The notes beneath the pieces were generated by a model. It had not been told where the DNA came from and made no database searches. It saw only the letters and a program-made list of their open reading frames with translations. A DNA stretch of 50,380 nt from positions 1-50,380 of the IMG/VR virus record IMGVR_UViG_3300032360_000014. The stretch is one strand, 5' to 3'. Position 1 is the stretch's first letter; every line of letters starts with the position of its first letter. This DNA is from a virus. Its lineage: Duplodnaviria > Caudoviricetes. Position numbers and translations under genes: made by a program. Below, piece after piece: positions 3,321-21,698 of the stretch.

Positions 3321-3364
3321 CCACTTCATTTTTAACTCGGTTAAAATTTATTTTGGGTGTCAAT

Positions 3365-5497
3365 ATGTGGAAAATTAAAGCAAACGGTCATAATCATATA
3401 TGTGCAGATGCGTTGGTGGCTAAGCTCAATGATGTTGCGGTGTCTAATGATGAAAAGGCGCAGGCATTCAGTGAGCTTAGCTTAAAGCAAGTGGTACTTG
3501 AAGCGGCTAATGGCTTTGATATGCGTAGTCATGTGCGGGCAATATCAGAGCAAGCTATCGGCAGGATGCAAGCGCTGTTGTTAAAGGGCCACCCGCTTTT
3601 GGTGTCGATCTCTTGGGGTAAAGATTCAACGGTCTGTTTGGTGTTGCTGCTTGAAGCAATGAGGCGCATACAAGACGCGGGTATGACGTTACCTAAATGT
3701 TATGCAATAAATTCTAACACCGAGTTAGAAAACCCAGCGCTAGAAGACTATTTCGAGTGGATGCAAAATAACTTAACTGTTTTTGCGTCTAGTAATAATT
3801 TACCGCTTGAGTTTTTGCAAGCGACCCCGCCGATCACCTCAAGCTTTTTTTATACTACCATCGGGCGCGGAAAACTGCCGCGCTATCCAGGTATGAAGCG
3901 TGATTGTAGTGTTGACTGGAAAATAAACCCGATCATCAAAGTTAAGAAGTCTTTGCCTGTCACCGACATGACTAAAATATCGGTGGTTGGTACGCGTATC
4001 AATGAATCAGAGGAGCGTAAAAAGCGCATGTCTGAACGCGGTGATAACGCCATTGATATTTTAACGAATGATGATGGCGATGAATATATCACTCCAATTG
4101 CTGATTGGGAGTTAGAGGACGTGTGGGGGTTGCTGGCTTACTGTGACCAACGAACTGAGCGCACGCTATACCGCACATTTGTAAATAACTTTGATGAATG
4201 TATCGAGATTTACAAAGATGCAAACGCGGGCGAGTGTGTGGCTGCGCTGGGTGACAAAGATTTAAATGGCGCAGCGTGTGGCGCGCGGTTTGGTTGTTGG
4301 AATTGCGTTGCATCAGGTGAACAGGATAAATCAATGCAATCTATGATTGCCAGTAATCCAGATAAATATGGTCATCTTGCGCCTGTTGCTAAGCTGCGCG
4401 ATTGGATTTATTCACTTAGATTTGATTTAAAGCGACGTACATGGCTCGGCCGTAGCTATGACAAAGAAACCAAGTACATTGTATTGCACCCTGATTATTT
4501 GGATTTTTACACCCGCCGTGACTTATTGCGTTATATGTTGACCATTCAAGCCGAGGAAAACGAATGGGCCAATGAGCATAATGAAGAAATTGTGCGGTTT
4601 AACCTATTCAAGTTCAAACACATTATTGCCATTGATTTTATGTGGTCAATGTACTGCGATGCCCCGCACGCTTTTAGCGCTTTGCATGAGTATTATCAAA
4701 TTATGTATTTAGGCAGGCGCTACCCTTTGCCAGAAGTTATTTATCAGCCAGCAAAAACGAGCGTGCCACCAAAGCGCTGGTTTAAGTTACCAGAGGGGTC
4801 GGTCGTGCCTTGGACTGGTATTGCTGGTCTAAATGACCCCTACGAGATACACATTGGCAAAAAAATACGCGGTAACGCCGAGCCTACTTACATCAAAGAT
4901 CGTACCACAGGAGAGCAAAAGGAAATCATTCCGTTTGATGTAGCACCTGCAATGGAGGTCGATATTATCGAGGCTTGCACAATGATAAGTCGTTATTGTG
5001 AAACTAAAATGGCGATTGAAACCACGGGGAGCACGGCAATTGAAGGCGCAATGTATTATCTTAATATGGGTATTATCAAGCTGGGTCGAGCGCAAGCCTC
5101 GGGTTTAGATGAAATGCTACAGAAAGCACAGTTTTGGAGTCAATTAAGAGATAAGTTAAATTTACTGAATGTAGAAAAGTACGCGCTAGATAACAGTATC
5201 AGCGACGAAGAACACACCGCCTTAAAACAGCATAGCCGCAATGTCATTCCGATTAAAATGGTTGAGGAATTAGTCGACTCTAAAATCAAACCAGTCGCGG
5301 CAGATGTAAGCAAAAGTCACGCTGCTAAAGGTGCATACGTCACGCATAAAATCAGAACAGAAAAAACAGCATTAAAAATCCAAGCCGCGATAGCGCAGAT
5401 AAAACGAAAAGGCGAACCAATCACGCGCACTGCTGTTGCTCAAATAGTTGGTATATCGAGAGAGCAAATATCAAGACGATATAATCACTGCTTTTAA
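3365..5497 (+). CDS. DndC-like PAPS reductase/PP-loop family protein with C-terminal HTH
   Basis: SWGKDS PP-loop, RDCSVDWKINP, GTRINES, PIADW, CGARFGCWNC cluster motif; C-terminal ITRTAVAQIVGISREQISRRY HTH. Confidence 0.85.
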   Translation: MWKIKANGHNHICADALVAKLNDVAVSNDEKAQAFSELSLKQVVLEAANGFDMRSHVRAISEQAIGRMQALLLKGHPLLVSISWGKDSTVCLVLLLEAMRRIQDAGMTLPKCYAINSNTELENPALEDYFEWMQNNLTVFASSNNLPLEFLQATPPITSSFFYTTIGRGKLPRYPGMKRDCSVDWKINPIIKVKKSLPVTDMTKISVVGTRINESEERKKRMSERGDNAIDILTNDDGDEYITPIADWELEDVWGLLAYCDQRTERTLYRTFVNNFDECIEIYKDANAGECVAALGDKDLNGAACGARFGCWNCVASGEQDKSMQSMIASNPDKYGHLAPVAKLRDWIYSLRFDLKRRTWLGRSYDKETKYIVLHPDYLDFYTRRDLLRYMLTIQAEENEWANEHNEEIVRFNLFKFKHIIAIDFMWSMYCDAPHAFSALHEYYQIMYLGRRYPLPEVIYQPAKTSVPPKRWFKLPEGSVVPWTGIAGLNDPYEIHIGKKIRGNAEPTYIKDRTTGEQKEIIPFDVAPAMEVDIIEACTMISRYCETKMAIETTGSTAIEGAMYYLNMGIIKLGRAQASGLDEMLQKAQFWSQLRDKLNLLNVEKYALDNSISDEEHTALKQHSRNVIPIKMVEELVDSKIKPVAADVSKSHAAKGAYVTHKIRTEKTALKIQAAIAQIKRKGEPITRTAVAQIVGISREQISRRYNHCF

Positions 5498-5651: not shown

Positions 5652-7097
5652 ATGCTCTTACCAAATGAAATAGTGGTCGATAACTTTGCCGGGGGCGGCG
5701 GTGCGTCAACTGGCCTTGAGCTGGGGCTTAATCGTCATGTTGATATTGCGATTAATCATGACCCTGCGGCCATTGATATGCACAAGAAAAACCACCCAGA
5801 GACAAAGCACTATTGTGAATCAGTGTGGGACGTTAATCCGGTTGATGTATGTGCGGGTCGTCCTGTTGGTTTGGGGTGGTTTTCACCAGACTGCAAGCAT
5901 TTCTCTAAAGCTAAAGGCAATCGCCCCGTTGATAAGAATATACGCGGTTTAGCATGGGTTGTGGCACGTTGGGCGGCATTGGTGCCAATGCGTGTGTTTA
6001 TGCTTGAGAACGTAGAAGAGTTTTTGACGTGGGGGCCCGTGGTGGAGGTTTCACCTGGTAAATTTAAGCCATGCCCCGAGCGAAAAGGTGAAACGTTCGA
6101 AGGCTTTAAAAAGGCGCTCTCAACGGGCTTAGAATTAAGCCACCCAGCATGGAAGGAAATTTATCAAAGCTTATTCAGAGCGAATTTTAATTTAAAAGAA
6201 AAGCTGACCATTTTTAAACGATTAAAGGCGGGCTTAGGCTATGACTTAGAGCATCGCATTTTGTCTGCCTGTGATTTTGGCGTACCTACAACGCGCAAGC
6301 GCTTGTTCATGGTGGGTCGAAATGATGGCAAGCCGGTTGTTTGGCCTTCGCCTACGCACGGCCCAGCGGGCAGTGGTTTAGCATCGTACAAAACCGCCGC
6401 TGACATTATTGATTGGTCTATTCCTGTGCGCTCTATCTTTGGTCGCAAACGCCCATTGGCTGACGCCACAATGCGCCGTATTGCTAAGGGGATCGAGAAA
6501 TTTGTTAATTCAGATAAGGCGTATATTGTGCCGCAAAATAAAGTGGTGCCATTTATCACTGAACACGCCAATGCATCGAGCCAGCGTAATATGGATGCAA
6601 ACGAGCCTCTGCGTACCATTTGCGCGCAAGTTAAAGGTGGTCACTTTGCACTTGTGACCAGTCACATAGTTAAATTACGTGGTGATAACGTGGGTCATCG
6701 CACCGACGAGCCACTGCATACTATTTCAGCCGGTGGTAATCATCTTGGCGAAGTGCAGGCTTTCTTAGTGAAATATTACGGCACAAGTGACGCACAAGCG
6801 GCAAATGATCCATTAGGTACTGTTACGACTAAAGATAGATTCGGGCTTGTGACTATCAAGGGCGACAAATATCAAATTGTTGATATCGGCCTCAGAATGC
6901 TAGAGCCTCACGAGTTGTTCGCAGCAATGGGGTTTCCTGAGTATTACGAAATCGCCACAGACACGAATGGTAAAAAGAATACTAAAGCTAATCAAGTTTC
7001 CCGTTGTGGCAATGCCGTATGCCCGCCATTAGCGCAAGCATTGGTTGTGGCGAATATGGACGAAGACAATCAATTTAACCGCCGCATAGCGGCTTAA
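5652..7097 (+). CDS. dcm: C5 cytosine DNA methyltransferase (orphan)
   Basis: FAGGGG (motif I), SPDC (catalytic Cys, motif IV), ENV (VI), TTRKRLF (VIII), GNAVCP (X). Confidence 0.95.
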   Translation: MLLPNEIVVDNFAGGGGASTGLELGLNRHVDIAINHDPAAIDMHKKNHPETKHYCESVWDVNPVDVCAGRPVGLGWFSPDCKHFSKAKGNRPVDKNIRGLAWVVARWAALVPMRVFMLENVEEFLTWGPVVEVSPGKFKPCPERKGETFEGFKKALSTGLELSHPAWKEIYQSLFRANFNLKEKLTIFKRLKAGLGYDLEHRILSACDFGVPTTRKRLFMVGRNDGKPVVWPSPTHGPAGSGLASYKTAADIIDWSIPVRSIFGRKRPLADATMRRIAKGIEKFVNSDKAYIVPQNKVVPFITEHANASSQRNMDANEPLRTICAQVKGGHFALVTSHIVKLRGDNVGHRTDEPLHTISAGGNHLGEVQAFLVKYYGTSDAQAANDPLGTVTTKDRFGLVTIKGDKYQIVDIGLRMLEPHELFAAMGFPEYYEIATDTNGKKNTKANQVSRCGNAVCPPLAQALVVANMDEDNQFNRRIAA

Positions 7098-9268: not shown

Positions 9269-10021
9269 TTGACCACAATCGCTTATTCAGAAAAACACAA
9301 CCAGATTGCGTGTGACTCACGAACAACCGAAGGCAATGCTATTTTAAACGAACATGCACAAAAGTGGTTTGTTTTAGCGTGTGGTTCTAAAGTGTTTTGC
9401 AGCGGGGCCACGCTTGATATTGAGCAGCTTAAAAAGCGCCTGCAGCACGGAGAGCTGTTTTCAAACATTGGATTGGTAAAGTTTATTCGAGTTGGTTCTA
9501 AAGGGGTTTTTTATGGTGAAGCGAATAATGATCATATAAAAGAAGAGCCTTTGAATCATGATCACGCAATCGGTAGCGGTGCCCCTTATGCGCAGGCAGC
9601 AATGGAGCGTGGTGATATCGCCCAACAAGCAGTAGAGTGCGCTGCACGACGAGATTCAAAGACAAACAATATAATCCATGTTTTTAATACGTTGCCCAGC
9701 GATTGGCCGTACTCTGAATTACACGCCCTTGCTGATCAGTTTGATGAACTCGCAAAACAGGTCAGTGCGTTAGATAAGCGCTTAACTGTCAGCGAGCTTT
9801 CATCGCTACAAAGCCGCTTTGCAAATCTAAGTAATACAGTAAAAAATATGCGGGCTATGCTCCACTTTCCAGCTACCAACCAGCTTGCGCGCCTTTCTCT
9901 GGGTTATAGTGAGTTAGATGCATTAGAAAGCTATTTCAAAGAGAACGAAGTAAGTTATCGACTCATTAGTAACCCGCCCTCTATCCTAGATAACCTCGAC
10001 GTACAAATACAATTTCGGTAA
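9269..10021 (+). CDS. Ntn-hydrolase (proteasome beta/HslV-like) protein with C-terminal helical extension
   Basis: N-terminal (M)TTIAY nucleophile Thr, CDSRTT, AIGSGAPYA, AVECAARRD. Confidence 0.75.
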   Translation: MTTIAYSEKHNQIACDSRTTEGNAILNEHAQKWFVLACGSKVFCSGATLDIEQLKKRLQHGELFSNIGLVKFIRVGSKGVFYGEANNDHIKEEPLNHDHAIGSGAPYAQAAMERGDIAQQAVECAARRDSKTNNIIHVFNTLPSDWPYSELHALADQFDELAKQVSALDKRLTVSELSSLQSRFANLSNTVKNMRAMLHFPATNQLARLSLGYSELDALESYFKENEVSYRLISNPPSILDNLDVQIQFR

Positions 10022-10028
10022 CTGACGA

Positions 10029-10472
10029 GGTGTAGTGCAAACGGGAAACCCTTTTTAAGCTTGATGTAGAGCAATAGTTATGGGAATCAGCTTAAGTTCA
10101 CGGTGGCATTTTGGTCAATTGGGTGTAGTGCAAACGGGAGGCCCTTTTTAAGCTTGATGTAGAGCAATAGTTATGGGAATCAGCTTAAGTTCACGGTGGC
10201 ATTTTGGTCAATTGGGTGTAGTGCAAACGGGAAAGACCATTTTAAGCTTGCTGTAGAGCAATCGCTATGGGAATCAGCTTAAGTTCACGGTGGCCTTTTG
10301 GTCAATTGGGTGTAGTGCAAACGGGAAACCCTTTTTAAACTTTATGTAAAAATCATAGCTATGGGAATCAGCTTAAGTTCACGGTGGCATTTTGGTCAGT
10401 TGGGTGTAGTGCAAACGGGATGCCCCTTTTAAACTTTATGTAAAGCAATCGCTATGGGAAACACCTTAAGTT
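10029..10472. repeat. About 4.7 tandem 93-94 bp repeats, each containing one Rep iteron (copy-control/incompatibility array)
   Basis: Units start at 10029, 10122, 10215, 10309 and 10403; the four full units carry TATGGGAATCAGCTTAAGTT, the reverse complement of the origin iteron, and the fifth a variant. Confidence 0.9.
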
Positions 10473-11179
10473 TCATCTACGATTGAAAATACAAACTTTT
10501 CAACCTTTGAGCCTTGAAAAGTCGTTGAGCAAGCCACTTTAAGTGGGGTTTCTTTGTTGATCCGATTAATAGCCGGTTCAATAAAGCTGCGCTTCATTTC
10601 TGCTGCATTTTCTTTTTGTGAGTCTGGTAATTGGTAGCGTTCAGCAAGCCACTGTGGTGTTACAGTCCAAATGCCGGTATTGCGCCATTGGCACAAGTTT
10701 TCGTATAACCTAATCGTTCTGCTATTCTTTATGGTCCCGCATTCGTGCAAATAAAATTTTGTGAATTGTTGTGTCAAACCAACAATGTAAGGCAATAAAC
10801 GGGGGTTAAAATCAACGCGGTACGACCCTCTCCCTACTCGTGTTGATTGTTCTATTAACCAGGGGCGTACGGTTTCTTCAAACTCGCCTTCCTTGGGGTA
10901 AAACTTTACTGTGCTTTTAAGGATTTCTTCTAAACCCTTTTTAACGTCTGTCGAAGCTGTTTGCACACTAACAGAAAATAAATTTTGATAATCTGATACA
11001 TGCACATCAAATTGACCATTTGAAATGTCTATGTGTTCGTCTGTCACGGTATCTTTTATTTGCGAAAAACACATCCAAAGTACACGTTTAGCTTTTAAAG
11101 AGAGGTAATAAGCCGCTTCGCTGATCTCGTTCGATTGAGTAACTAGGTTCTTTTTATTCTTCTTAGCAAGTTTGGTCAT
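10466..11179 (-). CDS. repB: Rep_3/RepB family plasmid replication initiator
   Basis: LVTQSNEISEAAYYLSL, FNPRLLPYI, FTKF, TIRLYENLCQW, FIEPAINRIN; start placed at MTKLAKK (track start 11212 lies in the operator). Confidence 0.92.
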   Translation of the reverse strand: MTKLAKKNKKNLVTQSNEISEAAYYLSLKAKRVLWMCFSQIKDTVTDEHIDISNGQFDVHVSDYQNLFSVSVQTASTDVKKGLEEILKSTVKFYPKEGEFEETVRPWLIEQSTRVGRGSYRVDFNPRLLPYIVGLTQQFTKFYLHECGTIKNSRTIRLYENLCQWRNTGIWTVTPQWLAERYQLPDSQKENAAEMKRSFIEPAINRINKETPLKVACSTTFQGSKVEKFVFSIVDET

Positions 11180-11187
11180 GGGCGAAC

Positions 11188-11213
11188 TATGGGAGTATTT
11201 AATTATACCCATA
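11188..11213. promoter_or_regulatory. Inverted half-iteron operator (Rep autorepression)
   Basis: TATGGG-N14-CCCATA just upstream of the rep start, built from the iteron core. Confidence 0.6.
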
Positions 11214-12026: not shown

Positions 12027-12734
12027 CTAAAGCGGTATAGTTTTTAAAAAATATTTTACTTCTGTGATACTCATGCCCTTTTGATAAATGTCTCTATCTC
12101 GGGCTAGACAAATTAACTCGTCGCGTTTGTTTAGCCAGTTGTCGAGCGTTGTAGGCGATACATGAAGCTTGCGCGCTATCTCGCTTTTTGTCACATCTTG
12201 AGATAACCAAAATAACACCTGATTTTCGTGCTTATCTAGCTTACTGGTGATGATTGCCCCCTTCGCCCTGCCCGTTGGTAGGCTGGCTCTTTTTCTACGT
12301 TCAGCGGCCTCTTTGGCCTTTAAGCTTCGTTGTTTGCTAAAGTCTTGTGCAGCAAAGGCTTTGCCTATGGTCATAAAAAAAGTGGCTAAATCGTTTTTGT
12401 GATCGGGGGTAAGAACGTCAGCGTTTAAACAAAAGTGTAATTCAGCGCCGTTATTTATCACCCTTGTGATAATTTCTAGAATGTCACTGACAGAATCACG
12501 GCCCAGTCGCTCTATATCATTTACGAGTAACCGATCACCTTTTTTAAGCAGTTCGATGATCTCTATCAGGCCCCTTTGCGCTTTGTTTGTTTTACTGCCG
12601 CTCAGTTCGTATTCAAACCATTTACTAATATATAGCCCATGTTCATCGGCATATTTATTAATGCGGTCACGCTGGCCTGTGGAGTCTTGTTTGTTGTGAT
12701 CACTAATGCGGATATAAGCGTAATTTTTAGCCAA
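12027..12734 (-). CDS. Serine recombinase (resolvase) with C-terminal HTH
   Basis: YAYIRIS catalytic Ser, SGSK..R, GDRLLV..IERLGR, TGR, KSEIARKLHVSPTTL. Confidence 0.93.
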   Translation of the reverse strand: MAKNYAYIRISDHNKQDSTGQRDRINKYADEHGLYISKWFEYELSGSKTNKAQRGLIEIIELLKKGDRLLVNDIERLGRDSVSDILEIITRVINNGAELHFCLNADVLTPDHKNDLATFFMTIGKAFAAQDFSKQRSLKAKEAAERRKRASLPTGRAKGAIITSKLDKHENQVLFWLSQDVTKSEIARKLHVSPTTLDNWLNKRDELICLARDRDIYQKGMSITEVKYFLKTIPL

Positions 12735-12851: not shown

Positions 12852-12876
12852 AAAAAGCCGCTAATCAAAGCGGCTT
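12852..12876 (-). terminator. Intrinsic terminator after the peptide gene
   Basis: Minus strand reads AAGCCGC-tttgatta-GCGGCTTTTT. Confidence 0.8.
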
Positions 12877-12888
12877 AAGTATCATAAA

Positions 12889-13011
12889 TTATGGTTTATT
12901 TTTGTAATAAGTAACCACTGCGTTTCTGGCTTGTGGCTGGCCGCCTCGATCACCAGTGCCAGCGCCACCACCTACTACTGTTTTAATCACGTCTTTCGAT
13001 AACACTATCAT
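12889..13011 (-). CDS. 40-aa double-glycine-leader peptide precursor (not in ORF track)
   Basis: MIVLSKDVIKTVVGG|GAGTGDRGGQPQARNAVVTYYKNKP; GAGG RBS 6 nt upstream; terminator immediately downstream. Confidence 0.8.
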   Translation of the reverse strand: MIVLSKDVIKTVVGGGAGTGDRGGQPQARNAVVTYYKNKP

Positions 13012-13068
13012 TTTAAGCCTCGTTTATTTTGAGTTTCTACAACTATTTTGCTTATATATGATTAAAAA

Positions 13069-13740
13069 TCAATGAGAAATCCCAGCTTTTATTCTCTTAT
13101 TTACAATGCCGTCGATACTCATTGCAGCAAGGCCAAGTATCATCAACCCAGTGGTGCACATTTTTAAATATGGGTATGCATCAAAAACAAATATGTACTT
13201 CATTAATGTTGGGTCAGCGGCAATAGGGTATATGCTCATATTGAAGTAATCTAACAATGGCACTAACTCAAGTTTTTCTATAGCTATATTGAAATACTCA
13301 GGGTGCCTGATTAAGTGTTCAATCATTAATAAAGCATTAAAGAATATACTAGCAACCAGCGCAATTCTTATCGCATATTCTTGTTTGGTCGCTTCAACAT
13401 TTTTGAGAACTTTTATGGCAAAAGTATCTTTTTTAGGCCTAAAAATATCAAATGCTCTAAAACAAATGTCTATACGAAAGTACAATAATAAAATTGTCAA
13501 CGTATCAATTGCGCAATAAGCTGCTTGTCTAATGAGGAGTTCTTCAGGTAAATGAACTCTCACTAGAAACAAATCAATTGCGTTGGCGCAGAGAAAGACA
13601 GACGCTATCCAAATCCTATTAGGGTCTTTCATGTTGCAAATAAGCGTAAGGATTAATGCTGTTAAAAAGATAAAACCCATCCATTCGGCGAGTGCATTAT
13701 CACTAGAAATGGCACTAAAAACATTGAAAATTATATCCAT
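13069..13740 (-). CDS. Multi-pass membrane protein (about 5 TM), candidate peptide receptor or immunity protein
   Basis: About five hydrophobic stretches; no kinase domain; start abuts the stop of the HTH gene. Confidence 0.8.
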   Translation of the reverse strand: MDIIFNVFSAISSDNALAEWMGFIFLTALILTLICNMKDPNRIWIASVFLCANAIDLFLVRVHLPEELLIRQAAYCAIDTLTILLLYFRIDICFRAFDIFRPKKDTFAIKVLKNVEATKQEYAIRIALVASIFFNALLMIEHLIRHPEYFNIAIEKLELVPLLDYFNMSIYPIAADPTLMKYIFVFDAYPYLKMCTTGLMILGLAAMSIDGIVNKRIKAGISH

Positions 13741-14070
13741 CTATTTGTCCTCATCTTCTGACTTCAAATCCTTGATAAACCGCTCTTTATCACTTGTTGA
13801 TAATTTATTGAATTGCTTGCGCAAATATACAATAGTTGAACCACTCATAAGAAAAGAGCTACGCTTTTTCTTTACTAACTCTTGCAGCTTTCGCCATTGT
13901 GTTACGGTTGGTTCGTTCGTGAGTTCAGGATCTTCCCAGTGCTTTATGGTATTTGGTGATTTCACACCTAGTTTTTTTTGAAGTCCTGTTTTATTTAGCC
14001 CTAGCTCAAGCCGCATACTTTTAATTAACGCAGCTGTTTCACGGGTTTCGTCGTCAGGGTATTTACCCAC
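13741..14070 (-). CDS. XRE/Cro-type HTH regulator
   Basis: IKSMRLELGLNKTGLQKKLGVKSPNTIKHWE..P; GTG start at 14070 with AGGGAGG RBS (track start 14145). Confidence 0.8.
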   Translation of the reverse strand: MGKYPDDETRETAALIKSMRLELGLNKTGLQKKLGVKSPNTIKHWEDPELTNEPTVTQWRKLQELVKKKRSSFLMSGSTIVYLRKQFNKLSTSDKERFIKDLKSEDEDK

Positions 14071-14244
14071 ATCTACCTCCCTGCATATATTTTTTGCTAA
14101 TTTTGGAACAATTATATTTGTAAAATAATTGAAAAAAAACTCCATTCATTAACATATCCGCATTTTTTTGCATCTAAGCCTTGTTATATTCCCTTCACTG
14201 TTCAGCAATCAAGAAGTTTGCTGCTATTAATAAAAGGACAAGTT

Positions 14245-14481
14245 ATGTTACCTCTCGCGCTGCTGTTATTGCTAACTTTATGCTTATGCACCTACCACAT
14301 TATCAATCGTTTCATAGAGCGCCGCTGCTTAAATCGGGCTTTTAAAAAAGCAAAGCGTGAGCTAAACAGCGCATACTCACAAGCCGAAAAAAACAGTGCA
14401 CAAGCTGAGTGTGAGGTATTACAAGTTTTGTTAACTGCGTGTGACTCAAAAAAATTAGTTAATGAACATAAGGCCAGCTAA
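14245..14481 (+). CDS. Small membrane-anchored protein
   Basis: AAGGA RBS, N-terminal hydrophobic helix; divergent from the HTH gene. Confidence 0.6.
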   Translation: MLPLALLLLLTLCLCTYHIINRFIERRCLNRAFKKAKRELNSAYSQAEKNSAQAECEVLQVLLTACDSKKLVNEHKAS

Positions 14482-14642
14482 TGAAAAATTTAACTACACA
14501 TCAGCTGGCAAAATTAAAGCAAGCACAAGCCGAAGCTCTGGAGTTGTCCGCGTCGTCGGTTGAGTTCGGCGAAAACCACGCGGCTTGTGCTGCACGTCAA
14601 ATTGCTAAGCTGATCAGTGAGGCGCTTGGCGAAGAAAGTTAA
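14481..14642 (+). CDS. Small helical protein (53 aa, not in ORF track)
   Basis: TAATG overlap with the previous stop; MKNLTTHQLAKLKQAQAEALE... Confidence 0.55.
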   Translation: MKNLTTHQLAKLKQAQAEALELSASSVEFGENHAACAARQIAKLISEALGEES

Positions 14643-14858: not shown

Positions 14859-15128
14859 TTATATTTTACCCATCATTACTTCACCAATGGCTTTAGATAA
14901 GGCTTTGTCACTACTTGTTTCTGCAAGTTTAATGCATGCCCTTATAAGCTTGGTTCTGTCTAAGTTATTAAATTCAGGTTTCCATTTTTCTACCATATTA
15001 TCGATCTTTTTTATTTCAGAAGGGTAAAGCCTGATAGGTGTTACTTTGGCTCTTTCTGACTCTTTTGCTTTCTCAACAATTGAGTGTTCTTTTGTTGGGT
15101 TATTGACTCTATTTCCTAGCCTGCTCAT
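14859..15128 (-). CDS. Ribbon-helix-helix partition adaptor (type Ib ParB/ParG-like)
   Basis: Overlaps the parA stop; flexible N-tail, beta-strand VTPIRL, then two helices (DRTKLIRACI). Confidence 0.75.
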   Translation of the reverse strand: MSRLGNRVNNPTKEHSIVEKAKESERAKVTPIRLYPSEIKKIDNMVEKWKPEFNNLDRTKLIRACIKLAETSSDKALSKAIGEVMMGKI

Positions 15129-15937
15129 TGTGCTTTACCTGTTATTGCTGGGTGGTTTATTAATTCATTAGCAAGCGCCTTGTAGTTCGCTGCTGCAATC
15201 GACCCTTTTGATTTATGCAAAACGCTAACTTTCTCAATTTCCGCATTTGCTACTTGTTGGTCTTTACTTATTTTTGTTTTCAACAGGTATTCGGACACAT
15301 GCTTCATTTCATTTTCTAAGTGCGCATTTATTATCTTATTACCCTTTCCATACTCATTTCTGAATATGCCCATGGGAGCATTTTCGCCGTCTTTTATTTC
15401 TTCAATTAAATCTAGTAAGTCGGCTATGCCATCTGCGGAGTAAGTTGAACCATCAATAGGCACTAAGATAAAGTCGGACACTAGAATTGAATTTATGGTC
15501 CCCAGCCCTACATCTGGTGGGCAATCTATTATGACGAAATCAAATGAGTTATCTAATTTTTTAAGGTGTTTGGAGAATATCTTTTCTCTGTGCACAGTTG
15601 AGATTTTCTCTTCATATACTTTTTGTAAGGTCGGGTGACTTGAAATTAAGAATAAGTTGTCAACGTTTTTATCCCCCATGATAACGGGTTGTATTAGCGC
15701 GTTTATGTTTGCGGTTCTGTCTCTGAGTAACTTTATAATTGTTTCGTCTTGGGTCAATTCGTAAGGCGGTGTTTTCCCTAATGTCTCACTAGAGTTTGCT
15801 TGTCTATCAGCATCAATCACAAGGACTTTATTCCCTTTCATTGATAACGCATGGCTTAGGTTTACAGTTGTTGATGTTTTACCACATCCACCCTTTTGAT
15901 TTACTACTGTTATTATTACAGCCTTACAATCAGTCAT
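15125..15937 (-). CDS. parA: ParA Walker-type partition ATPase
   Basis: NQKGGCGKTST deviant Walker A, VLVIDADRQ, IIDCPP. Confidence 0.95.
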   Translation of the reverse strand: MTDCKAVIITVVNQKGGCGKTSTTVNLSHALSMKGNKVLVIDADRQANSSETLGKTPPYELTQDETIIKLLRDRTANINALIQPVIMGDKNVDNLFLISSHPTLQKVYEEKISTVHREKIFSKHLKKLDNSFDFVIIDCPPDVGLGTINSILVSDFILVPIDGSTYSADGIADLLDLIEEIKDGENAPMGIFRNEYGKGNKIINAHLENEMKHVSEYLLKTKISKDQQVANAEIEKVSVLHKSKGSIAAANYKALANELINHPAITGKAQ

Positions 15938-16253: not shown

Positions 16254-16907
16254 ATGAAAGGACTACATATGAGATATTTAGGAGTGTTGGCGCTGTTGCT
16301 ATGCGCCTCTGCACAAGCTAGCTTGGCAGATAAAATAAATGCATGTGCTACGCATCAAGATAAAACACGGCGCTTGCAGTGCTTTGATCGTATTGCAATC
16401 TACGTGATGATTGATAGTGTTACACAAGAAGGTAAAAAATCTGACGCTATGCCTTCACCCAAGCCGCTGGTAAAAGCGGGGTCGTGGCAGCTAAAAGAAT
16501 CGGTGTCGGTGATGGATGACAGCAAAAGTTTGTTGCTCAGCTTAGAAAGTATGAAATCAGTTAACACCATGTTTGGGCCTGCTAAACCTGTGCTGGGTAT
16601 TATGTGCCAGGCGCGATCTGGCTTGTCTTTGTATGTGCATTTTGGGGCTTATTTAGGTATTGGTAATATCAATGTGCAAACACGGCTTGATAAGTTGCCT
16701 GCGCATGATGATGTTTGGCAAGCTGCAACAAGTGGCCAAGCGGTGTTTGTTGTGCAAAAAGTAGAACAGTTTATTTATAGCTTGGTGCGGCATGGCTCTT
16801 TACTTGTTGCAACTAGGGCGGTGGATGGTACAGAGCTTATTGCTGATTTTAATGTTGAGGGCTTGGCGCAGCAGATCAAGCCCTTAGAGGAAATGTGTAG
16901 CCGGTGA
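16254..16907 (+). CDS. Exported VasI/TagO-like protein (moron)
   Basis: Signal peptide; C-x9-RLQCFD; WQL..SVSVMDDSK; PVLGIMC; VQTRLD. Confidence 0.7.
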   Translation: MKGLHMRYLGVLALLLCASAQASLADKINACATHQDKTRRLQCFDRIAIYVMIDSVTQEGKKSDAMPSPKPLVKAGSWQLKESVSVMDDSKSLLLSLESMKSVNTMFGPAKPVLGIMCQARSGLSLYVHFGAYLGIGNINVQTRLDKLPAHDDVWQAATSGQAVFVVQKVEQFIYSLVRHGSLLVATRAVDGTELIADFNVEGLAQQIKPLEEMCSR

Positions 16908-17784: not shown

Positions 17785-18429
17785 TTATGCCTGTTGTAAT
17801 TGTTTGTTTAATGCTGTTTGAAGCGCGGCTTGGCCACGCGCAAAAAGATGGTCTTTGCGTATATGCGTATATTGCGTTGGTTGGCCTAGCATGCTGGGGT
17901 TAAATTCTATTAAGCACATGGGCTTATTGAGTTCGTGTTTGCTTTCTTGGCCTGTTTTTGCATCAACGAACTTAATACCGCCGCTGCACCATTTTTTGTA
18001 TGCAGTGTCTTTTTTTGGCCCCGATGCATACACTTTGTCGGTGTAGTAACCCACGATGTCGATCACTTTCACGCCAAGGCCCGCGACCCACCACTGTGCG
18101 CGGTTTTCACGGGGGACAAATAGGGTGGTTGTAAAGCCTTTTTCTTGTTCTTCTAAGCATTTTTGTTTCCATGGCAAAATGTCGCTAAACGGCGGATTTA
18201 ACCAGCCGGTTGGCTTTTGTATATGTGCTAGGTCGTTGCGCCAATTTTGTTTTAGCGCGTCTATTTCTGGGGTGTAGTATCGGCTGCAATGTGCGCTTTG
18301 TGGCAGTGCGGCAAGGTCAATGTCGTAATGATATAGCGAATTAAACGCGGCAAATAGCCAGGGGGGAGTTTGTGTTAAGTCGCGGTATGCTTTGTCGGTT
18401 GTGCTTTTGTGATTGCTGGGCTCTGCCAT
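17785..18429 (-). CDS. dam: Phage N6-adenine DNA methyltransferase (phage Dam family)
   Basis: QTPPWLF, DIDLAA, YYTPEIDALKQNW, WLNPPFS; start at MAEPS with AGGA RBS. Confidence 0.88.
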   Translation of the reverse strand: MAEPSNHKSTTDKAYRDLTQTPPWLFAAFNSLYHYDIDLAALPQSAHCSRYYTPEIDALKQNWRNDLAHIQKPTGWLNPPFSDILPWKQKCLEEQEKGFTTTLFVPRENRAQWWVAGLGVKVIDIVGYYTDKVYASGPKKDTAYKKWCSGGIKFVDAKTGQESKHELNKPMCLIEFNPSMLGQPTQYTHIRKDHLFARGQAALQTALNKQLQQA

Positions 18430-18458
18430 TGTTAAGTCCTGTGATAAATTATAAATAA

Positions 18459-18473
18459 ATCTCAATTTGTGAT
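18459..18473. promoter_or_regulatory. ATCAC-N5-GTGAT-type operator upstream of dam
   Basis: ATCTCAATTTGTGAT, exact reverse complement of the site at 23817-23831. Confidence 0.65.
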
Positions 18474-18504
18474 AGTTGAGGGCGAAAAAAAAGCACATTA
18501 ATGC

Positions 18505-19125
18505 TTAGTTTTCTGCCCATGTGAAATGGCCAACGAGTTTGCCGATCACCTTTATATTTGCAAATTCTTGCTCAGTCAGCGCTAAATCTCGGTAATCTGC
18601 GTTTGTTGCAATGAGTGTGTATGTGTTATCAAACTCTTTGCGAACGCGTCTAAGTGTTGCTTGCCCGTCTTTTTCTATTAAGTAGACCGACTCAGTATTA
18701 ATTTGCTTTTTGTTGGTATCAATCACGGCGGTGCTGCTTTGCGGAATGTGTGGGCACATTGCTGCGTCTGTTACTTTATGCTCAATCAAAGAGTTTGGTT
18801 TGCAGTTTTTGTCTGCTAAGCGTTCGCGATTGATGGCTAATTCGCTATTCGTATTTAGTGCGTGATGAAGTGTGTCGCCGTTAATTTCGTGCGTTACACC
18901 CACAAGCCACTCAAAAGGCACATTTAATGTTTCGGCAATAAGCTGAATTTTATCAATCGCTGGCGTACGCTCAGCTTGCTCGATCATGCTGATGCTATTT
19001 TGTGCCAAGCCGACGATCTTGGCAAATTCACCCTGTTTTAAACCAAGTTCTTTACGATGCGAATTGATTCGTTGACCTAAAATTTTTGCGCGCGATATTT
19101 TTGGGCTTTTTTTGGCCTGTGTCAT
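18505..19125 (-). CDS. cI: CI-like repressor (XRE HTH plus degenerate S24 domain)
   Basis: LGLKQGEFAKIVGLAQNSISMIE HTH; S24-like C-terminal domain with DAAM in place of GDSM and TLRR in place of TxKR. Confidence 0.88.
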   Translation of the reverse strand: MTQAKKSPKISRAKILGQRINSHRKELGLKQGEFAKIVGLAQNSISMIEQAERTPAIDKIQLIAETLNVPFEWLVGVTHEINGDTLHHALNTNSELAINRERLADKNCKPNSLIEHKVTDAAMCPHIPQSSTAVIDTNKKQINTESVYLIEKDGQATLRRVRKEFDNTYTLIATNADYRDLALTEQEFANIKVIGKLVGHFTWAEN

Positions 19126-19160
19126 TTCTCTGTTTCCGCCGTGCTTTATAGCGTTAGAGT

Positions 19161-19238
19161 AACACAAAATGTGCTAAATAATAGAATAAATCTAATTTTT
19201 ATCGCCGAATGTGATTTTAATTTATCACTTAAAGTGAT
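19161..19238. promoter_or_regulatory. Lysis-lysogeny switch operators (three ATCAC-N5-GTGAT-like sites)
   Basis: AACACAAAATGTGCT 19161, ATCGCCGAATGTGAT 19201, ATCACTTAAAGTGAT 19224, between divergent cI and cro. Confidence 0.75.
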
Positions 19239-20474: not shown

Positions 20475-21698
20475 GTGGCGACAAAAAAAATAAAGATCTC
20501 TGACGCAGTGATCAAGGCGCAGCTAAAAAACAACGAGATAACGAGGCTTAGAGATACTCGTTACCCACTTTATTTGCGCTTTCATAAAAACCGAACGGGC
20601 GGTACTTGGTATTTAAGAGGCTTGGCGCAGGGTAAAGAATGGCATGTGCTTGCACAGTGGCCCGCTGTGCCCAGCGCGACGGTGTTAAAAGATATACCTG
20701 CATTATTACTACGCTTTGCTTTTGATGATCCAATTGTGACCGATAATTTTGAAACCTTTGGTCAGCTTTTAAAGTGGTATCTTGAACGTAGCCAAAGTGA
20801 TGCGTCTTTGTCAGATGACAGAAAGCGCACTGTGAAATCATTACTTAGTAAACACTTGATCCCAGCATTGAACGATATTCCCTTAATTGAGTTTAAAAAA
20901 TCAGCATTAGAAAACGTATTGCTCTGGCCGCTGCAGGAAAGTTATACAGCGAGTACAGTTCGTCAGATATTCCAGCTATTAAAACGAGCCCTGTCTCAAG
21001 CGGTAAAATCGGGTAAGTTAAATCATGATCCGCTTGCGGGAATTAGGTTCGGAGACATTATTGACGCCCTAATATCTCCTAAGCCTTCAAAAATAAAAAA
21101 ATCAGATGAACCTTTGATCGCAAGCCATGTATTGGGGTCGTCATCTTTACTGTGTCAATTAATGTTATTACACGGTACCCGCATCGGTGAGACCAGAAAG
21201 TCACAGTGGTCATTTATAGACTCTAATCATAAAACTTTGACGCTACCGGCGACGATCACTAAAACCAAACAACACGTTATTTATCTCAGTGATTACGCCT
21301 TTAATTTGCTGATCCAAGCCCATCAAAATCAGGTTAAAAGTGGTTACAGAGGGGACTTAATGTTTCCGAGTTCTAAAGGCCGCACTTGTATAGATCAGAA
21401 CACTGCCAACGACTTGGTACATGAGATAAGCAAAGGCGCTTATACATCGCATGACTTTCGCAAGCTTTGCCGCGTTCGCTGGCTAGAACTAGGCATTGAT
21501 TCAATGGTTGCTGAGTTGATGCTCAATCATGAGCTAACCCCAGTCCAAAAAACCTATGTTGAGTCGCTTGGGCTTAACGTGGGCGCTGAACGTAGACAGG
21601 CCGCTTGGCAGCTTTGGGCGGACCATTTACAAGCGCAGAAATTAGCGTTTGAGAATGAGACCCAGCCGAGATTGTATGATTTTTCGTGTGGTGCTTAA
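20475..21698 (+). CDS. Tyrosine recombinase/integrase
   Basis: Arm-binding-like N-terminus; GTRIGE (R), TKT (K), HDFRK (HxxR), LNH, KTY (Y). Confidence 0.9.
   Translation: MATKKIKISDAVIKAQLKNNEITRLRDTRYPLYLRFHKNRTGGTWYLRGLAQGKEWHVLAQWPAVPSATVLKDIPALLLRFAFDDPIVTDNFETFGQLLKWYLERSQSDASLSDDRKRTVKSLLSKHLIPALNDIPLIEFKKSALENVLLWPLQESYTASTVRQIFQLLKRALSQAVKSGKLNHDPLAGIRFGDIIDALISPKPSKIKKSDEPLIASHVLGSSSLLCQLMLLHGTRIGETRKSQWSFIDSNHKTLTLPATITKTKQHVIYLSDYAFNLLIQAHQNQVKSGYRGDLMFPSSKGRTCIDQNTANDLVHEISKGAYTSHDFRKLCRVRWLELGIDSMVAELMLNHELTPVQKTYVESLGLNVGAERRQAAWQLWADHLQAQKLAFENETQPRLYDFSCGA

What the first reader, a model, noticed from the sequence alone, without database searches (positions are those of the whole stretch)
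12852..14070. Candidate phage peptide-communication module: HTH regulator, membrane protein and hidden double-glycine peptide
Seen: three co-oriented genes in an AT-rich cassette. The XRE HTH gene abuts a roughly 5-TM protein with no kinase domain, followed by an unannotated 40-aa ORF with its own RBS and terminator: MIVLSKDVIKTVVGG|GAGTGDRGGQPQARNAVVTYYKNKP. Known: LSxxxLxxVxGG leaders are cut and exported by C39-peptidase ABC transporters and mark bacteriocins and pheromones; no such transporter or modifying enzyme is on this element. Inference: the phage borrows host export to release a polar, non-amphipathic peptide of about 25 aa sensed by the membrane protein and relayed to the HTH. This would be a density-sensing system unrelated to arbitrium, on a Gram-negative phage whose CI cannot self-cleave. 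The alternative is a microcin/immunity pair.
Basis: partly seen in the sequence, partly recalled or inferred. Interest (0 to 1): 0.88.

Follow-up and report, generated by a model that had tools for sequence, protein, structure and literature searches.

The report
Peptide-sensor-regulator gene trio on phage-plasmid
A marine Pseudoalteromonas phage-plasmid carries a small regulator, an unclassified membrane protein and a secretion-tagged mini-peptide that recur together in many host genomes, most likely as an undescribed peptide-signalling switch in Gram-negative bacteria.

Summary
On the minus strand lie an XRE-HTH gene (13741-14070), a 223-aa 5-TM protein (13069-13740) and a 40-aa ORF (12889-13011) with RBS and terminator.

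The trio is a conserved module. The membrane protein founds a family with no Pfam, NCBIfam, PHROG, PADLOC or PDB match. It occurs in at least 34 of 140 Pseudoalteromonas genomes and in related genera.
- A same-strand HTH lies upstream in 29 of 32 loci; the other 3 are cut at a contig end.
- A double-glycine-leader peptide with a Gly/Pro-rich core lies adjacent in 31 of 32.
- In four genomes the HTH is fused to the membrane domain.

Three sister phage-plasmids share terminase at 93-96% identity, but their cassette alleles are only 38-60% identical, and the divergent block has sharp boundaries. The element has no C39/ABC exporter. All 34 module-bearing host genomes have true C39 transporters.

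Best reading (about 0.5): a host-exported peptide is sensed by a split transmembrane regulator. A microcin-immunity pair (about 0.2) is not excluded. No link to lysis-lysogeny is shown, and nothing is tested experimentally. The literature searches found no description.

The parts
13741..14070 (-). XRE-type HTH regulator, 109 aa from GTG 14070. The longer 134-aa ORF runs to 14145.
   Evidence: ORF. GGGAGG RBS. A 109-aa, 99%-identical protein on a 50,301-bp contig. HTH_3 19 bits, below cut-off. Homologues pass the cut-off. Alignment A3.
13069..13740 (-). 223-aa polytopic membrane protein, the founding member here of an unclassified family. Proposed peptide sensor that controls the HTH.
   Evidence: ORF. 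Hydropathy. AF2 pLDDT 88.5. 10 relatives among 1.84 billion representatives. 0 of 39 family members hit Pfam. No NCBIfam, PHROG or PADLOC hit. No PDB relative.
13012..13068 (-). Intergenic spacer with the peptide gene's RBS (GAGG, 13018-13021) and a weak promoter-like site.
   Evidence: Sequence. Promoter-like site at 13039-13010 (consensus match only; 7 sites found against 11.4 expected).
12967..13011 (-). Leader part of the 40-aa ORF (15 codons ending in Gly-Gly).
   Evidence: By inspection L-12, S-11, I-7, V-4, G-2, G-1. The consensus used for comparison is recalled.
12889..12966 (-). Predicted mature 25-aa polar peptide (Gly-rich start with G-D-x-G-G-x-P) plus the stop codon.
   Evidence: the motif is found only in peptide frames next to membrane genes. 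GRAVY -1.19 and pI 9.99.
12855..12876 (-). Terminator-like stem-loop with a T-run, directly after the peptide ORF.
   Evidence: 8 pairs, 5 of them G-C, tail TTTATTG.
14071..14188 (-). Upstream control region of the cassette. It holds a 10-nt-arm palindrome at -61 and is conserved among the three sister elements although their HTH proteins differ.
   Evidence: I24; 92% identity to L002 at 14188-14129.

Best explanation
The cassette is a three-part peptide-signalling module of a kind not yet described.

- Step 1 (inferred): the 40-aa pre-peptide is cut after its Gly-Gly leader and exported by a host C39-peptidase ABC transporter. This releases a polar, Gly/Pro-rich peptide of about 25 aa.
- Step 2 (inferred): the peptide is bound at the periplasmic face of the 5-TM protein. 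The family-wide invariant E141, with R145 nearby, sits at that face.
- Step 3 (inferred from the fused forms): the membrane protein controls the small XRE-HTH regulator by holding or releasing it at its conserved, positively charged cytoplasmic face. This changes transcription.

The gene pair HTH plus membrane protein is the split form of a transmembrane transcription regulator, which exists as a single fused protein in paralogues. The module is native to Pseudoalteromonas and relatives. One lineage of about 50-kb phage-plasmids has captured it and carries three strongly diverged alleles. That pattern would allow allele-specific (kin-specific) signalling. What the regulator controls on the phage is unknown.
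For: Shown:
1. The membrane protein has real relatives: 10 at E<=1e-3 among 1.84 billion representatives. The family matches in 34 of 140 Pseudoalteromonas genomes and in 35 of 401 genomes at family level, 26 of them under new handles.
2. A same-strand HTH lies upstream or is fused in 29 of 32 loci. The 3 misses are cut at a contig end.
3. A regex for a GG-leader plus Gly/Pro core hit 30 of 5314 frames in 186.6 kb. Of these, 23 lie within 400 bp of a membrane gene on the same strand, and 2 of the other 7 are further tandem copies. With the loci read by eye, 31 of 32 loci have such a peptide.
4. The motif G-[DE]-x-G-G-x-P occurs in six-frame translations only in peptide frames beside the membrane gene. 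Of 8 hits, 6 are distinct.
5. The HTH_3 domain is fused to the membrane domain in G139, G140, G094 and G098, always next to a split trio. The fused forms have about 6 TM spans, so both ends are cytoplasmic. This agrees with an N-out/C-in 5-TM stand-alone form.
6. Sister elements share terminase at 96% and 93% identity and resolvase at 97.9% (W against L002). Their peptide, membrane protein and HTH are 60%, 46% and 38% identical. The low-identity block runs from about 14128 to about 12934, which is exactly the cassette.
7. Predicted mature cores are 9-37 aa long. Their first 14 residues are 27% Gly and 12% Pro, and the window core has GRAVY -1.19. This does not look like a membrane-active toxin.
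8. All 34 module-bearing genomes have a strong C39 match. 6 of 6 transporters inspected keep the catalytic Cys motif.
Against: - There is no experimental or expression evidence of any kind.
- No binding between any two parts is shown.
- The exporter is unlinked and only assumed. The C39 co-occurrence is confounded. By my count, 48 of the 51 listed genomes of 5 Mb or more have a strong C39 match whether or not they carry the module (28/28 with the module, 20/23 without).
- GG-leader peptides next to polytopic membrane proteins are also the classic layout of bacteriocin plus immunity. Tandem peptide copies (L006, L007) are common in bacteriocin loci.
- The conserved Gly-rich motif spans the proposed cleavage site, so 'GG' might be part of a functional motif and not a processing site.
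- The window peptide matches no curated leader model.
- The cassette's upstream region is conserved among elements whose HTH proteins are only 38% identical. This argues against simple autoregulation at that site.
- The neighbourhood is mosaic in any case: parA is replaced and rep is absent in G522. The divergence may therefore reflect recombination and not selection for specificity.
Confidence: 0.5

Rival explanations
1. Microcin/bacteriocin-immunity cassette. The GG-leader peptide is a small secreted toxin exported by a host C39 transporter. The membrane protein protects the producer, and the HTH regulates expression. The phage-plasmid uses it for addiction or competition.
For: The leader is GG-type. 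The leader of the L046 peptide gives sub-threshold hits to three bacteriocin families. Peptide genes occur in tandem in L006 and L007. Alleles are strongly diverged on mobile elements. Many paralogous membrane genes per genome could be orphan immunities. C39 transporters are present in all module-bearing genomes.
Against: The same membrane domain occurs fused to an HTH in four genomes, which is not expected of an immunity protein. Predicted mature peptides are 9-37 aa, Gly/Pro/Asp-rich and polar, and some are acidic 15-mers. No export or accessory genes lie beside the module on the element. An HTH accompanies the module in 29 of 32 loci.
Confidence: 0.2
2. The membrane protein is a dedicated maturation/export protein for the adjacent peptide, in the manner of AgrB with AgrD. 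The peptide acts back on the HTH directly or through another sensor.
For: The size (about 190-230 aa), the 5-6 TM topology and the tight adjacency to a 40-60-aa peptide gene recall AgrB/AgrD. No exporter is linked to the module.
Against: 0 of 39 members hit any Pfam family. Only R89 and E141 are invariant across the family, and no Cys or His is. The leader looks like a C39 substrate. The HTH proteins (81-134 aa) have no room for a ligand-binding domain. Fusing an HTH to a processing enzyme is hard to explain.
Confidence: 0.08
3. The module is not a secreted-peptide system. The small ORF encodes an intracellular mini-protein, or is not translated. HTH plus membrane protein would then be a toxin-antitoxin, abortive-infection or exclusion pair of the mobile element.
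For: XRE-HTH proteins are common antitoxins. NCBIfam gives weak MqsA- and HipB-like hits, all far below cut-off. The cassette sits in the accessory/maintenance arm beside the rep, par and resolvase genes. No expression data exist.
Against: The peptide ORF with its leader-like N-terminus is kept in 31 of 32 loci despite gene-order changes and low sequence identity. There are no PADLOC hits. Fused HTH-membrane proteins argue for a regulator and not a toxin.
Confidence: 0.1

Closest known systems
Double-glycine-leader peptide pheromones of Gram-positive bacteria (ComC/CSP, BlpC) exported by C39-peptidase ABC transporters
   Same: A short pre-peptide with a leader ending in Gly-Gly. Cleavage and export by a C39 transporter are presumed. 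The peptide gene sits beside its presumed sensor, and peptide and sensor have diverged into alleles.
   Different: The sensor here is a 5-TM protein of about 200 aa without a kinase, paired with an XRE-HTH and not a response regulator. The host is Gram-negative and the exporter is unlinked. My knowledge of the ComC/BlpC systems is recalled; abstracts were seen in the listings.
Transmembrane transcription regulators such as BcrR and BreG (one-component, membrane-bound HTH sensors)
   Same: Fused paralogues in G139, G140, G094 and G098 have an N-terminal HTH_3 domain followed by a multi-span membrane domain. BcrR (bacitracin resistance) and BreG (bacteriocin synthesis) are listed as characterised TTRs in Table 1 of PMC10269533 (passages read).
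   Different: The window's version is split into two genes. The membrane domain is an unclassified family, and homology to BcrR was not tested because no BcrR sequence was at hand. A dedicated ribosomal peptide gene is part of the module.
Arbitrium (AimR-AimP) and other RRNPP systems of Firmicutes and their phages
   Same: A peptide gene beside a regulator on a temperate mobile element, with allele diversity between related phages. The concept of phage-borne peptide signalling is shared.
   Different: RRNPP receptors are cytoplasmic TPR proteins that bind re-imported peptide. The abstract of PMC10075063 (listing) places them in Gram-positive Firmicutes. Here the HTH has no TPR domain, the presumed receptor is a membrane protein, and the leader is GG-type. 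There is no homology: the only AimR hit is 17.9 bits against a cut-off of 70, over the HTH alone.
Class II microcins / class II bacteriocins with membrane immunity proteins
   Same: A GG-type leader, an adjacent polytopic membrane protein, dependence on a C39 transporter, and carriage on mobile elements.
   Different: The mature peptides are short, polar and Gly/Pro/Asp-rich. No transporter genes are adjacent. The membrane domain also occurs fused to an HTH. The typical microcin properties used for comparison are recalled; see also the abstract of PMC10233263 (listing).
agr system (AgrB-AgrD) and LytTR regulatory systems (HdrRM/BrsRM)
   Same: A small polytopic membrane protein next to a short peptide gene (as in agr). 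A regulator paired with a membrane protein that controls it (as in HdrRM/BrsRM).
   Different: There is no AgrB Pfam match, no conserved Cys/His, no kinase and no LytTR domain. Both comparisons rest on recall and were not tested with sequences.

Membership tests
Double-glycine leader peptide (C39/PCAT substrate) | N-terminal leader of about 15-30 aa ending in G-G (or G-A/G-S) | tested here: met
   The window leader is 15 aa and ends in GG. For 26 of the 30 catalogued peptides a start codon gives a 12-32-aa leader ending in G-[GAS], with a median of 23.5. For 4 no start was assigned within that range.
Double-glycine leader peptide (C39/PCAT substrate) | Conserved hydrophobic positions -4, -7 and -12 (consensus LSxxELxxIxGG, recalled) | tested here: met
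   By inspection: L-12, S-11, I-7, V-4. Position -8 is V and not E (D is at -9). L046 shows the full consensus.
Double-glycine leader peptide (C39/PCAT substrate) | Match to a curated leader or bacteriocin model | tested here: inconclusive
   The window peptide has 0 Pfam, PHROG or NCBIfam hits. The L046 peptide gives three sub-threshold bacteriocin-family hits over its leader.
Double-glycine leader peptide (C39/PCAT substrate) | A C39-peptidase ABC transporter with catalytic Cys is available | tested here: met
   None is on the element. In the host genus, 102 of 140 genomes match, and all 34 module-bearing genomes have E<=1e-31. The Cys motif is kept in 6 of 6 inspected. G047, the host of a sister element, has one.
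Double-glycine leader peptide (C39/PCAT substrate) | Cleavage after GG and export demonstrated | not testable with these tools
   This needs mass spectrometry of supernatants.
RRNPP / arbitrium | Cytoplasmic receptor with TPR repeats joined to the HTH | tested here: not met
   The HTH proteins are 81-134 aa with HTH_3 only.
RRNPP / arbitrium | Propeptide with a Sec-type signal peptide | tested here: not met
   By inspection the 15-aa leader has no long hydrophobic core.
Class II microcin/bacteriocin with immunity | Hydrophobic or amphipathic mature peptide (typical feature, recalled) | tested here: not met
   The window core has GRAVY -1.19. Cores are 9-37 aa, and their first 14 residues are 27% G, 12% P and 8% D.
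Class II microcin/bacteriocin with immunity | Dedicated transporter and accessory genes in the same cluster | tested here: not met
   There is no C39 or ABC domain on the 50.4-kb element. In genomes the nearest C39 gene is 30-46 kb away or on another contig.
Class II microcin/bacteriocin with immunity | Killing activity and protection by the membrane protein | not testable with these tools
   This needs a bioassay.
Transmembrane transcription regulator (BcrR type) | DNA-binding domain and membrane domain in one polypeptide | tested here: not met
   In the window these are two genes, with the stop codon directly followed by ATG. Paralogues in four genomes are fused, with HTH_3 at 25.5-32.8 bits against a cut-off of 23.
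Transmembrane transcription regulator (BcrR type) | Homology of the membrane domain to a characterised TTR | not tested
   No BcrR or BreG sequence was available from a tool. The profile found nothing in the PDB.
agr (AgrB/AgrD) | AgrB family match and catalytic His/Cys | tested here: not met
   0 of 39 members hit Pfam. Only R89 and E141 are invariant.

The most novel reading that the evidence does not exclude
A lineage of Gram-negative (Pseudoalteromonas) phage-plasmids uses allele-specific, ribosomally made GG-leader peptides to talk to kin. The peptides would be exported by the host's C39 transporter and read by a split transmembrane HTH regulator. The signal would feed into the lysis-lysogeny or maintenance decision of a phage whose CI-like repressor appears to lack the self-cleavage residues. 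This would be a functional counterpart of arbitrium with unrelated parts. It would also be one face of a wider, undescribed peptide quorum-sensing family in marine Gammaproteobacteria.
Probability: 0.2. Interest if true: 0.95.

Novelty: new variant of a known kind. Interest (0 to 1): 0.8.

Why it matters
Peptide-based cell-cell signalling is textbook for Gram-positive bacteria and their phages, but it is nearly unknown in Gram-negative bacteria. Here a testable candidate is defined by three conserved parts, a natural culturable host of a sister element (P. peptidolytica DSM 14001, as the tool's record title names it), and three natural alleles in near-identical phages for cross-talk tests. Even if the peptide proves to be a toxin, the membrane protein family (tens of paralogues, no annotation) and its fusion to HTH domains define a new class of membrane-linked regulators in marine bacteria.

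Tried and rejected
**Searches that found nothing**
- blastn of the 3.2-kb region and tblastn of the membrane protein against the phage and plasmid collections: no match.
- Word-indexed protein search: only the query itself for the membrane protein. For the HTH, only a near-identical copy.
- PADLOC: 0 hits for 6 proteins.
- Fold searches on the AF2 model: the best Foldseek hit has E 0.09 and TM <= 0.34. The best VIA-align hit has Z 9.5, to designed helical bundles, which is below the tool's stated noise for helical proteins. The Atlas gives only unnamed clusters below 0.9. No fold assignment was made.
- Profile against PDB sequences: 0 hits at E<=10.
- Six literature searches found no description of such a module. 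One search gave the TTR paper. Paper supplements were not consulted.

**Jobs without a verdict**
- Complex prediction, membrane protein with HTH: no verdict (median score 0.09, runs 0.03/0.47/0.09). This is not evidence either way.
- The look-up of sequencing runs: no RNA holder listed.

**Tool errors and what followed**
- The search for related loci with alignment A1 failed because no conserved stretch was found. P0008 found no locus. Relatives cannot be drawn for a virus record.

**Ideas dropped**
- An intramembrane metalloprotease or CPBP-like enzyme, suggested by 'EHxxRH' and 'QExxxR'. The His residues are not conserved in the wider family and there is no Pfam hit.
- An RTX-like Ca-binding repeat in the peptide. 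The spacing does not fit on inspection.
- A shared operator upstream of the HTH and peptide genes. No common palindrome was found.

**Weak or abandoned statistics**
- The codon counts (peptide 5 synonymous and 16 non-synonymous changed codons; resolvase 42 and 5) are not a valid dN/dS at this divergence. I do not claim positive selection.
- The C39 co-occurrence (Fisher p = 1.4e-10) is confounded by clade and genome size.
The statement that the cores are polar therefore rests on the window peptide, the composition, and reading the list.
Full report
**1. What the window is**

The window is a complete 50,380-bp virus record with direct terminal repeats.
- Phage genes: terminase, portal, integrase and a CI-like repressor.
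- Plasmid-type genes: Rep3 initiator, ParA and a serine resolvase.
It is therefore a phage-plasmid-like temperate element. Two sister elements were found. One is an IMG/VR record of 53,002 bp (G522). The other is a 51,281-bp contig whose title, as given by the tool, reads Pseudoalteromonas peptidolytica DSM 14001 (G047:C33). Their terminases are 96% and 93% identical to the window's. The host is therefore Pseudoalteromonas.

**2. The observation**

On the minus strand lie three genes:
- an HTH gene at 13741-14145;
- a 223-aa hydrophobic protein at 13069-13740, whose ATG follows the HTH stop codon directly;
- after a 57-nt spacer with GAGG six bases before the ATG, a 40-aa ORF at 12889-13011, followed by a stem-loop and T-run at 12876-12855.

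The HTH most likely starts at the GTG at 14070, giving 109 aa. A GGGAGG lies 5 nt upstream. A 99%-identical 109-aa protein is on record. The same RBS context is kept in the P. peptidolytica element.

GC falls to 0.345 across the cassette. The element carries no C39 peptidase or ABC domain. The exact 40-aa product is already in the public gene-call collection, so it is not strictly unannotated.

**3. Is it more than chance?**

A single leader-like motif is not. My regex also hit three unrelated frames in the window. The comparative data are decisive.

The membrane protein found nothing in a word-indexed search. A full HMMER scan of 1.84 billion representatives gave 10 relatives. The named ones are all 'hypothetical protein' of Pseudoalteromonas.

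A profile of these (A1) matched 34 of 140 genomes of the genus. A wider profile (A2) matched 35 of 401 genomes sampled at family level. Of these, 26 are under handles not seen in the genus search, and some genomes have seven or more copies. It also picked up five genus genomes that A1 had missed, so 34 of 140 is a lower bound.

I examined 32 distinct loci (the window, L002, L003, L005-L033).
- **HTH:** a same-strand XRE-HTH lies just upstream or is fused in 29. The other three are cut at a contig end at that point.
- **Peptide, by regex:** the pattern (hydrophobic-x-x-hydrophobic-x-G-[GSA], then a core with at least 2 Gly and a Pro) hit 30 of 5314 frames in 186.6 kb. Of these, 23 lie within 400 bp of a membrane gene on the same strand. 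Two of the other seven are extra tandem copies.
- **Peptide, with loci read by eye:** this adds L002, L003, L005, L018, L020, L021, L024, L026, L032 and L033. In all, 31 of 32 loci have such a peptide. The exception, L019, is truncated.
- **Beyond the genus:** the trio recurs in genomes outside the genus set (L044-L047, L052, L053, L065, L066). One of them, L046, has a textbook leader.
- **Gene order:** it varies between HTH-peptide-membrane and HTH-membrane-peptide, but the association survives.

**4. The peptides**

Thirty were catalogued.
- Leaders: for 26 of the 30 a start codon gives a 12-32-aa leader; 4 have no assigned start (median 23.5).
- Predicted cores: 9-37 aa (median 29.5).
- The first 14 core residues are 27% Gly, 12% Pro and 8% Asp.
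- Close relatives share G-[DE]-x-G-G-x-P. In six-frame translations of all loci then held and of the whole window, this motif occurred only in these peptide frames.

The window's predicted mature peptide has GRAVY -1.19. Several loci carry two or three tandem peptide genes or repeats. No curated model matches the window peptide. The L046 peptide gives three sub-threshold bacteriocin-family hits, all over its leader.

**5. The membrane protein**
- 0 of 39 family members hit Pfam. There is no NCBIfam, PHROG or PADLOC hit, and no PDB sequence relative.
- The AF2 model is confident (pLDDT 88.5, pTM 0.83), but it has no informative structural neighbour.
- Hydropathy and K/R distribution suggest five spans with the N-terminus outside and the C-terminus inside, plus a strongly basic cytoplasmic loop at 65-122.
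- Across the wide family only R89 (cytoplasmic side) and E141 (periplasmic end of TM4) are invariant.
- The close subfamily also keeps N36, D39, R42, K119-Q120-E121, R145, H146 and Y189.
- The His residues are lost in distant members, so I dropped an enzyme reading.

**6. The link between the HTH and the membrane domain**

In four genomes (G139, G140, G094, G098) paralogues encode a single protein of about 270-312 aa. An N-terminal HTH_3 domain scores 25.5-32.8 bits against a cut-off of 23. The family's membrane domain follows it. These fused genes always sit next to a split trio. They have about six spans. The HTH is therefore cytoplasmic, and the rest of the domain keeps the orientation inferred for the stand-alone form.

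This is the architecture of transmembrane transcription regulators such as BcrR and BreG (PMC10269533, Table 1, passages read). It is the main reason I read the membrane protein as the sensing half of a regulator and not as an immunity protein. A predicted-complex job for the split pair gave no verdict. I do not count it either way.

**7. Allelic block in the phage lineage**

| Feature, window against L002 | Amino-acid identity |
|---|---|
| Resolvase | 97.9% |
| Terminase | 96% |
| Peptide | 60% |
| Membrane protein | 46% |
| HTH | 38% |

The third element is about equally distant for the three cassette genes. A 60-nt sliding comparison shows at least 92% identity on both sides and 45-70% from about 14128 to about 12934. 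The block starts in the HTH 5' region and ends inside the peptide's C-terminal codons. The three genes thus behave as one exchangeable unit.

This pattern is what specificity groups of pheromone-receptor pairs look like, but bacteriocin-immunity pairs look the same. The surrounding arm is also mosaic: parA is replaced, and rep is absent in G522. I make no claim of positive selection.

**8. The exporter**

C39 domains occur in 102 of 140 genus genomes. All 34 module-bearing genomes have a strong match. The six best keep the catalytic Cys motif in open frames of at least 644 aa in the fetched loci (708-743 aa in the genome table). The necessary condition is therefore met, including in G047.

The association is not specific, despite Fisher p = 1.4e-10. 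By my count, 48 of the 51 listed genomes of 5 Mb or more have a strong match whether or not they carry the module. The transporters are also unlinked, lying 30-46 kb away or on other contigs.

**9. Mechanism and rivals**

Best reading (0.5): the pre-peptide is exported and cleaved by the host transporter. The mature peptide is sensed at the periplasmic face of the membrane protein, which governs the HTH. The fused paralogues are the one-protein version. The genetic architecture, the conservation and the fusions are shown. Export, binding and output are all inferred.

Rivals:
- microcin-immunity (0.2);
- AgrB-like processing (0.08);
- a non-secreted mini-protein or a TA-like pair (0.1).

The cassette's upstream region is conserved among the three elements even though their HTH proteins differ. 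Control of the operon may therefore lie partly with conserved phage or host factors. The HTH's targets are unknown.

**10. Novelty**

Six literature searches found no description. No database names the family. RRNPP and arbitrium systems are described as Gram-positive (abstract of PMC10075063, listing). The concept of a secreted peptide, a membrane sensor and a regulator is known. The parts, the split/fused HTH-membrane design with a dedicated GG-peptide, the Gram-negative host and the phage-plasmid carriage are new. I rate it a new variant of a known kind, with interest 0.8. The interest is tempered by the complete lack of functional data: no RNA run holds the region.

Noticed in passing
window 18505-19167 (-): The CI-like repressor has HTH_3 plus a Peptidase_S24-like domain (48 bits). 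Where I recall LexA's catalytic Ser (G-D-S-M) and Lys it reads D-A-A-M and R-R-V-R-K. RecA-type self-cleavage therefore looks impossible, and induction must use another route.
   Followed up: partly
window 16254-16907 (+): A 217-aa protein with a signal-like N-terminus matches the T6SS VasI family (PF11319, 30.7 bits against a cut-off of 26.5). A homologue sits in L002 at 2236-2784. This is an unexpected cargo gene for a phage-plasmid.
   Followed up: no
window 10466-11212, 12027-12734, 15125-15937, 20475-21698: Rep3 initiator, serine resolvase, ParA and a tyrosine integrase sit together on one complete phage genome. The sister element G522 lacks the Rep3 gene and has a different ParA. The maintenance arm is therefore mosaic.
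   Followed up: partly
window 14071-14188; L002 4490-4648; L005 2434-2600: The region upstream of the cassette is conserved in all three elements, although their HTH proteins are only 38% identical. It includes a GCAAAAAAATGC element and TTTTACAA(A/T)TATA. It also faces two small divergent ORFs (14218-14481, 14481-14642) that are 66-74% conserved.
   Followed up: partly
L020, L025/L042, L048, L049, L050, L051: Arrays of a split trio followed by one to three HTH-membrane fusion genes. Some genomes hold seven or more family members. This suggests large paralogous sensor repertoires.
   Followed up: partly
window 3353-5497, 5652-7097, 17785-18498, 9269-10021: A PAPS-reductase-like protein of 714 aa, two DNA methyltransferases and an HslV-like peptidase. 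These are possible DNA-modification or anti-restriction cargo.
   Followed up: no
L009-L012 peptides: In four related genomes the peptide cores are identical up to G-G-G-G-Q-V-D-P and differ directly after it. Specificity may lie in the tail that follows the conserved D-P.
   Followed up: no
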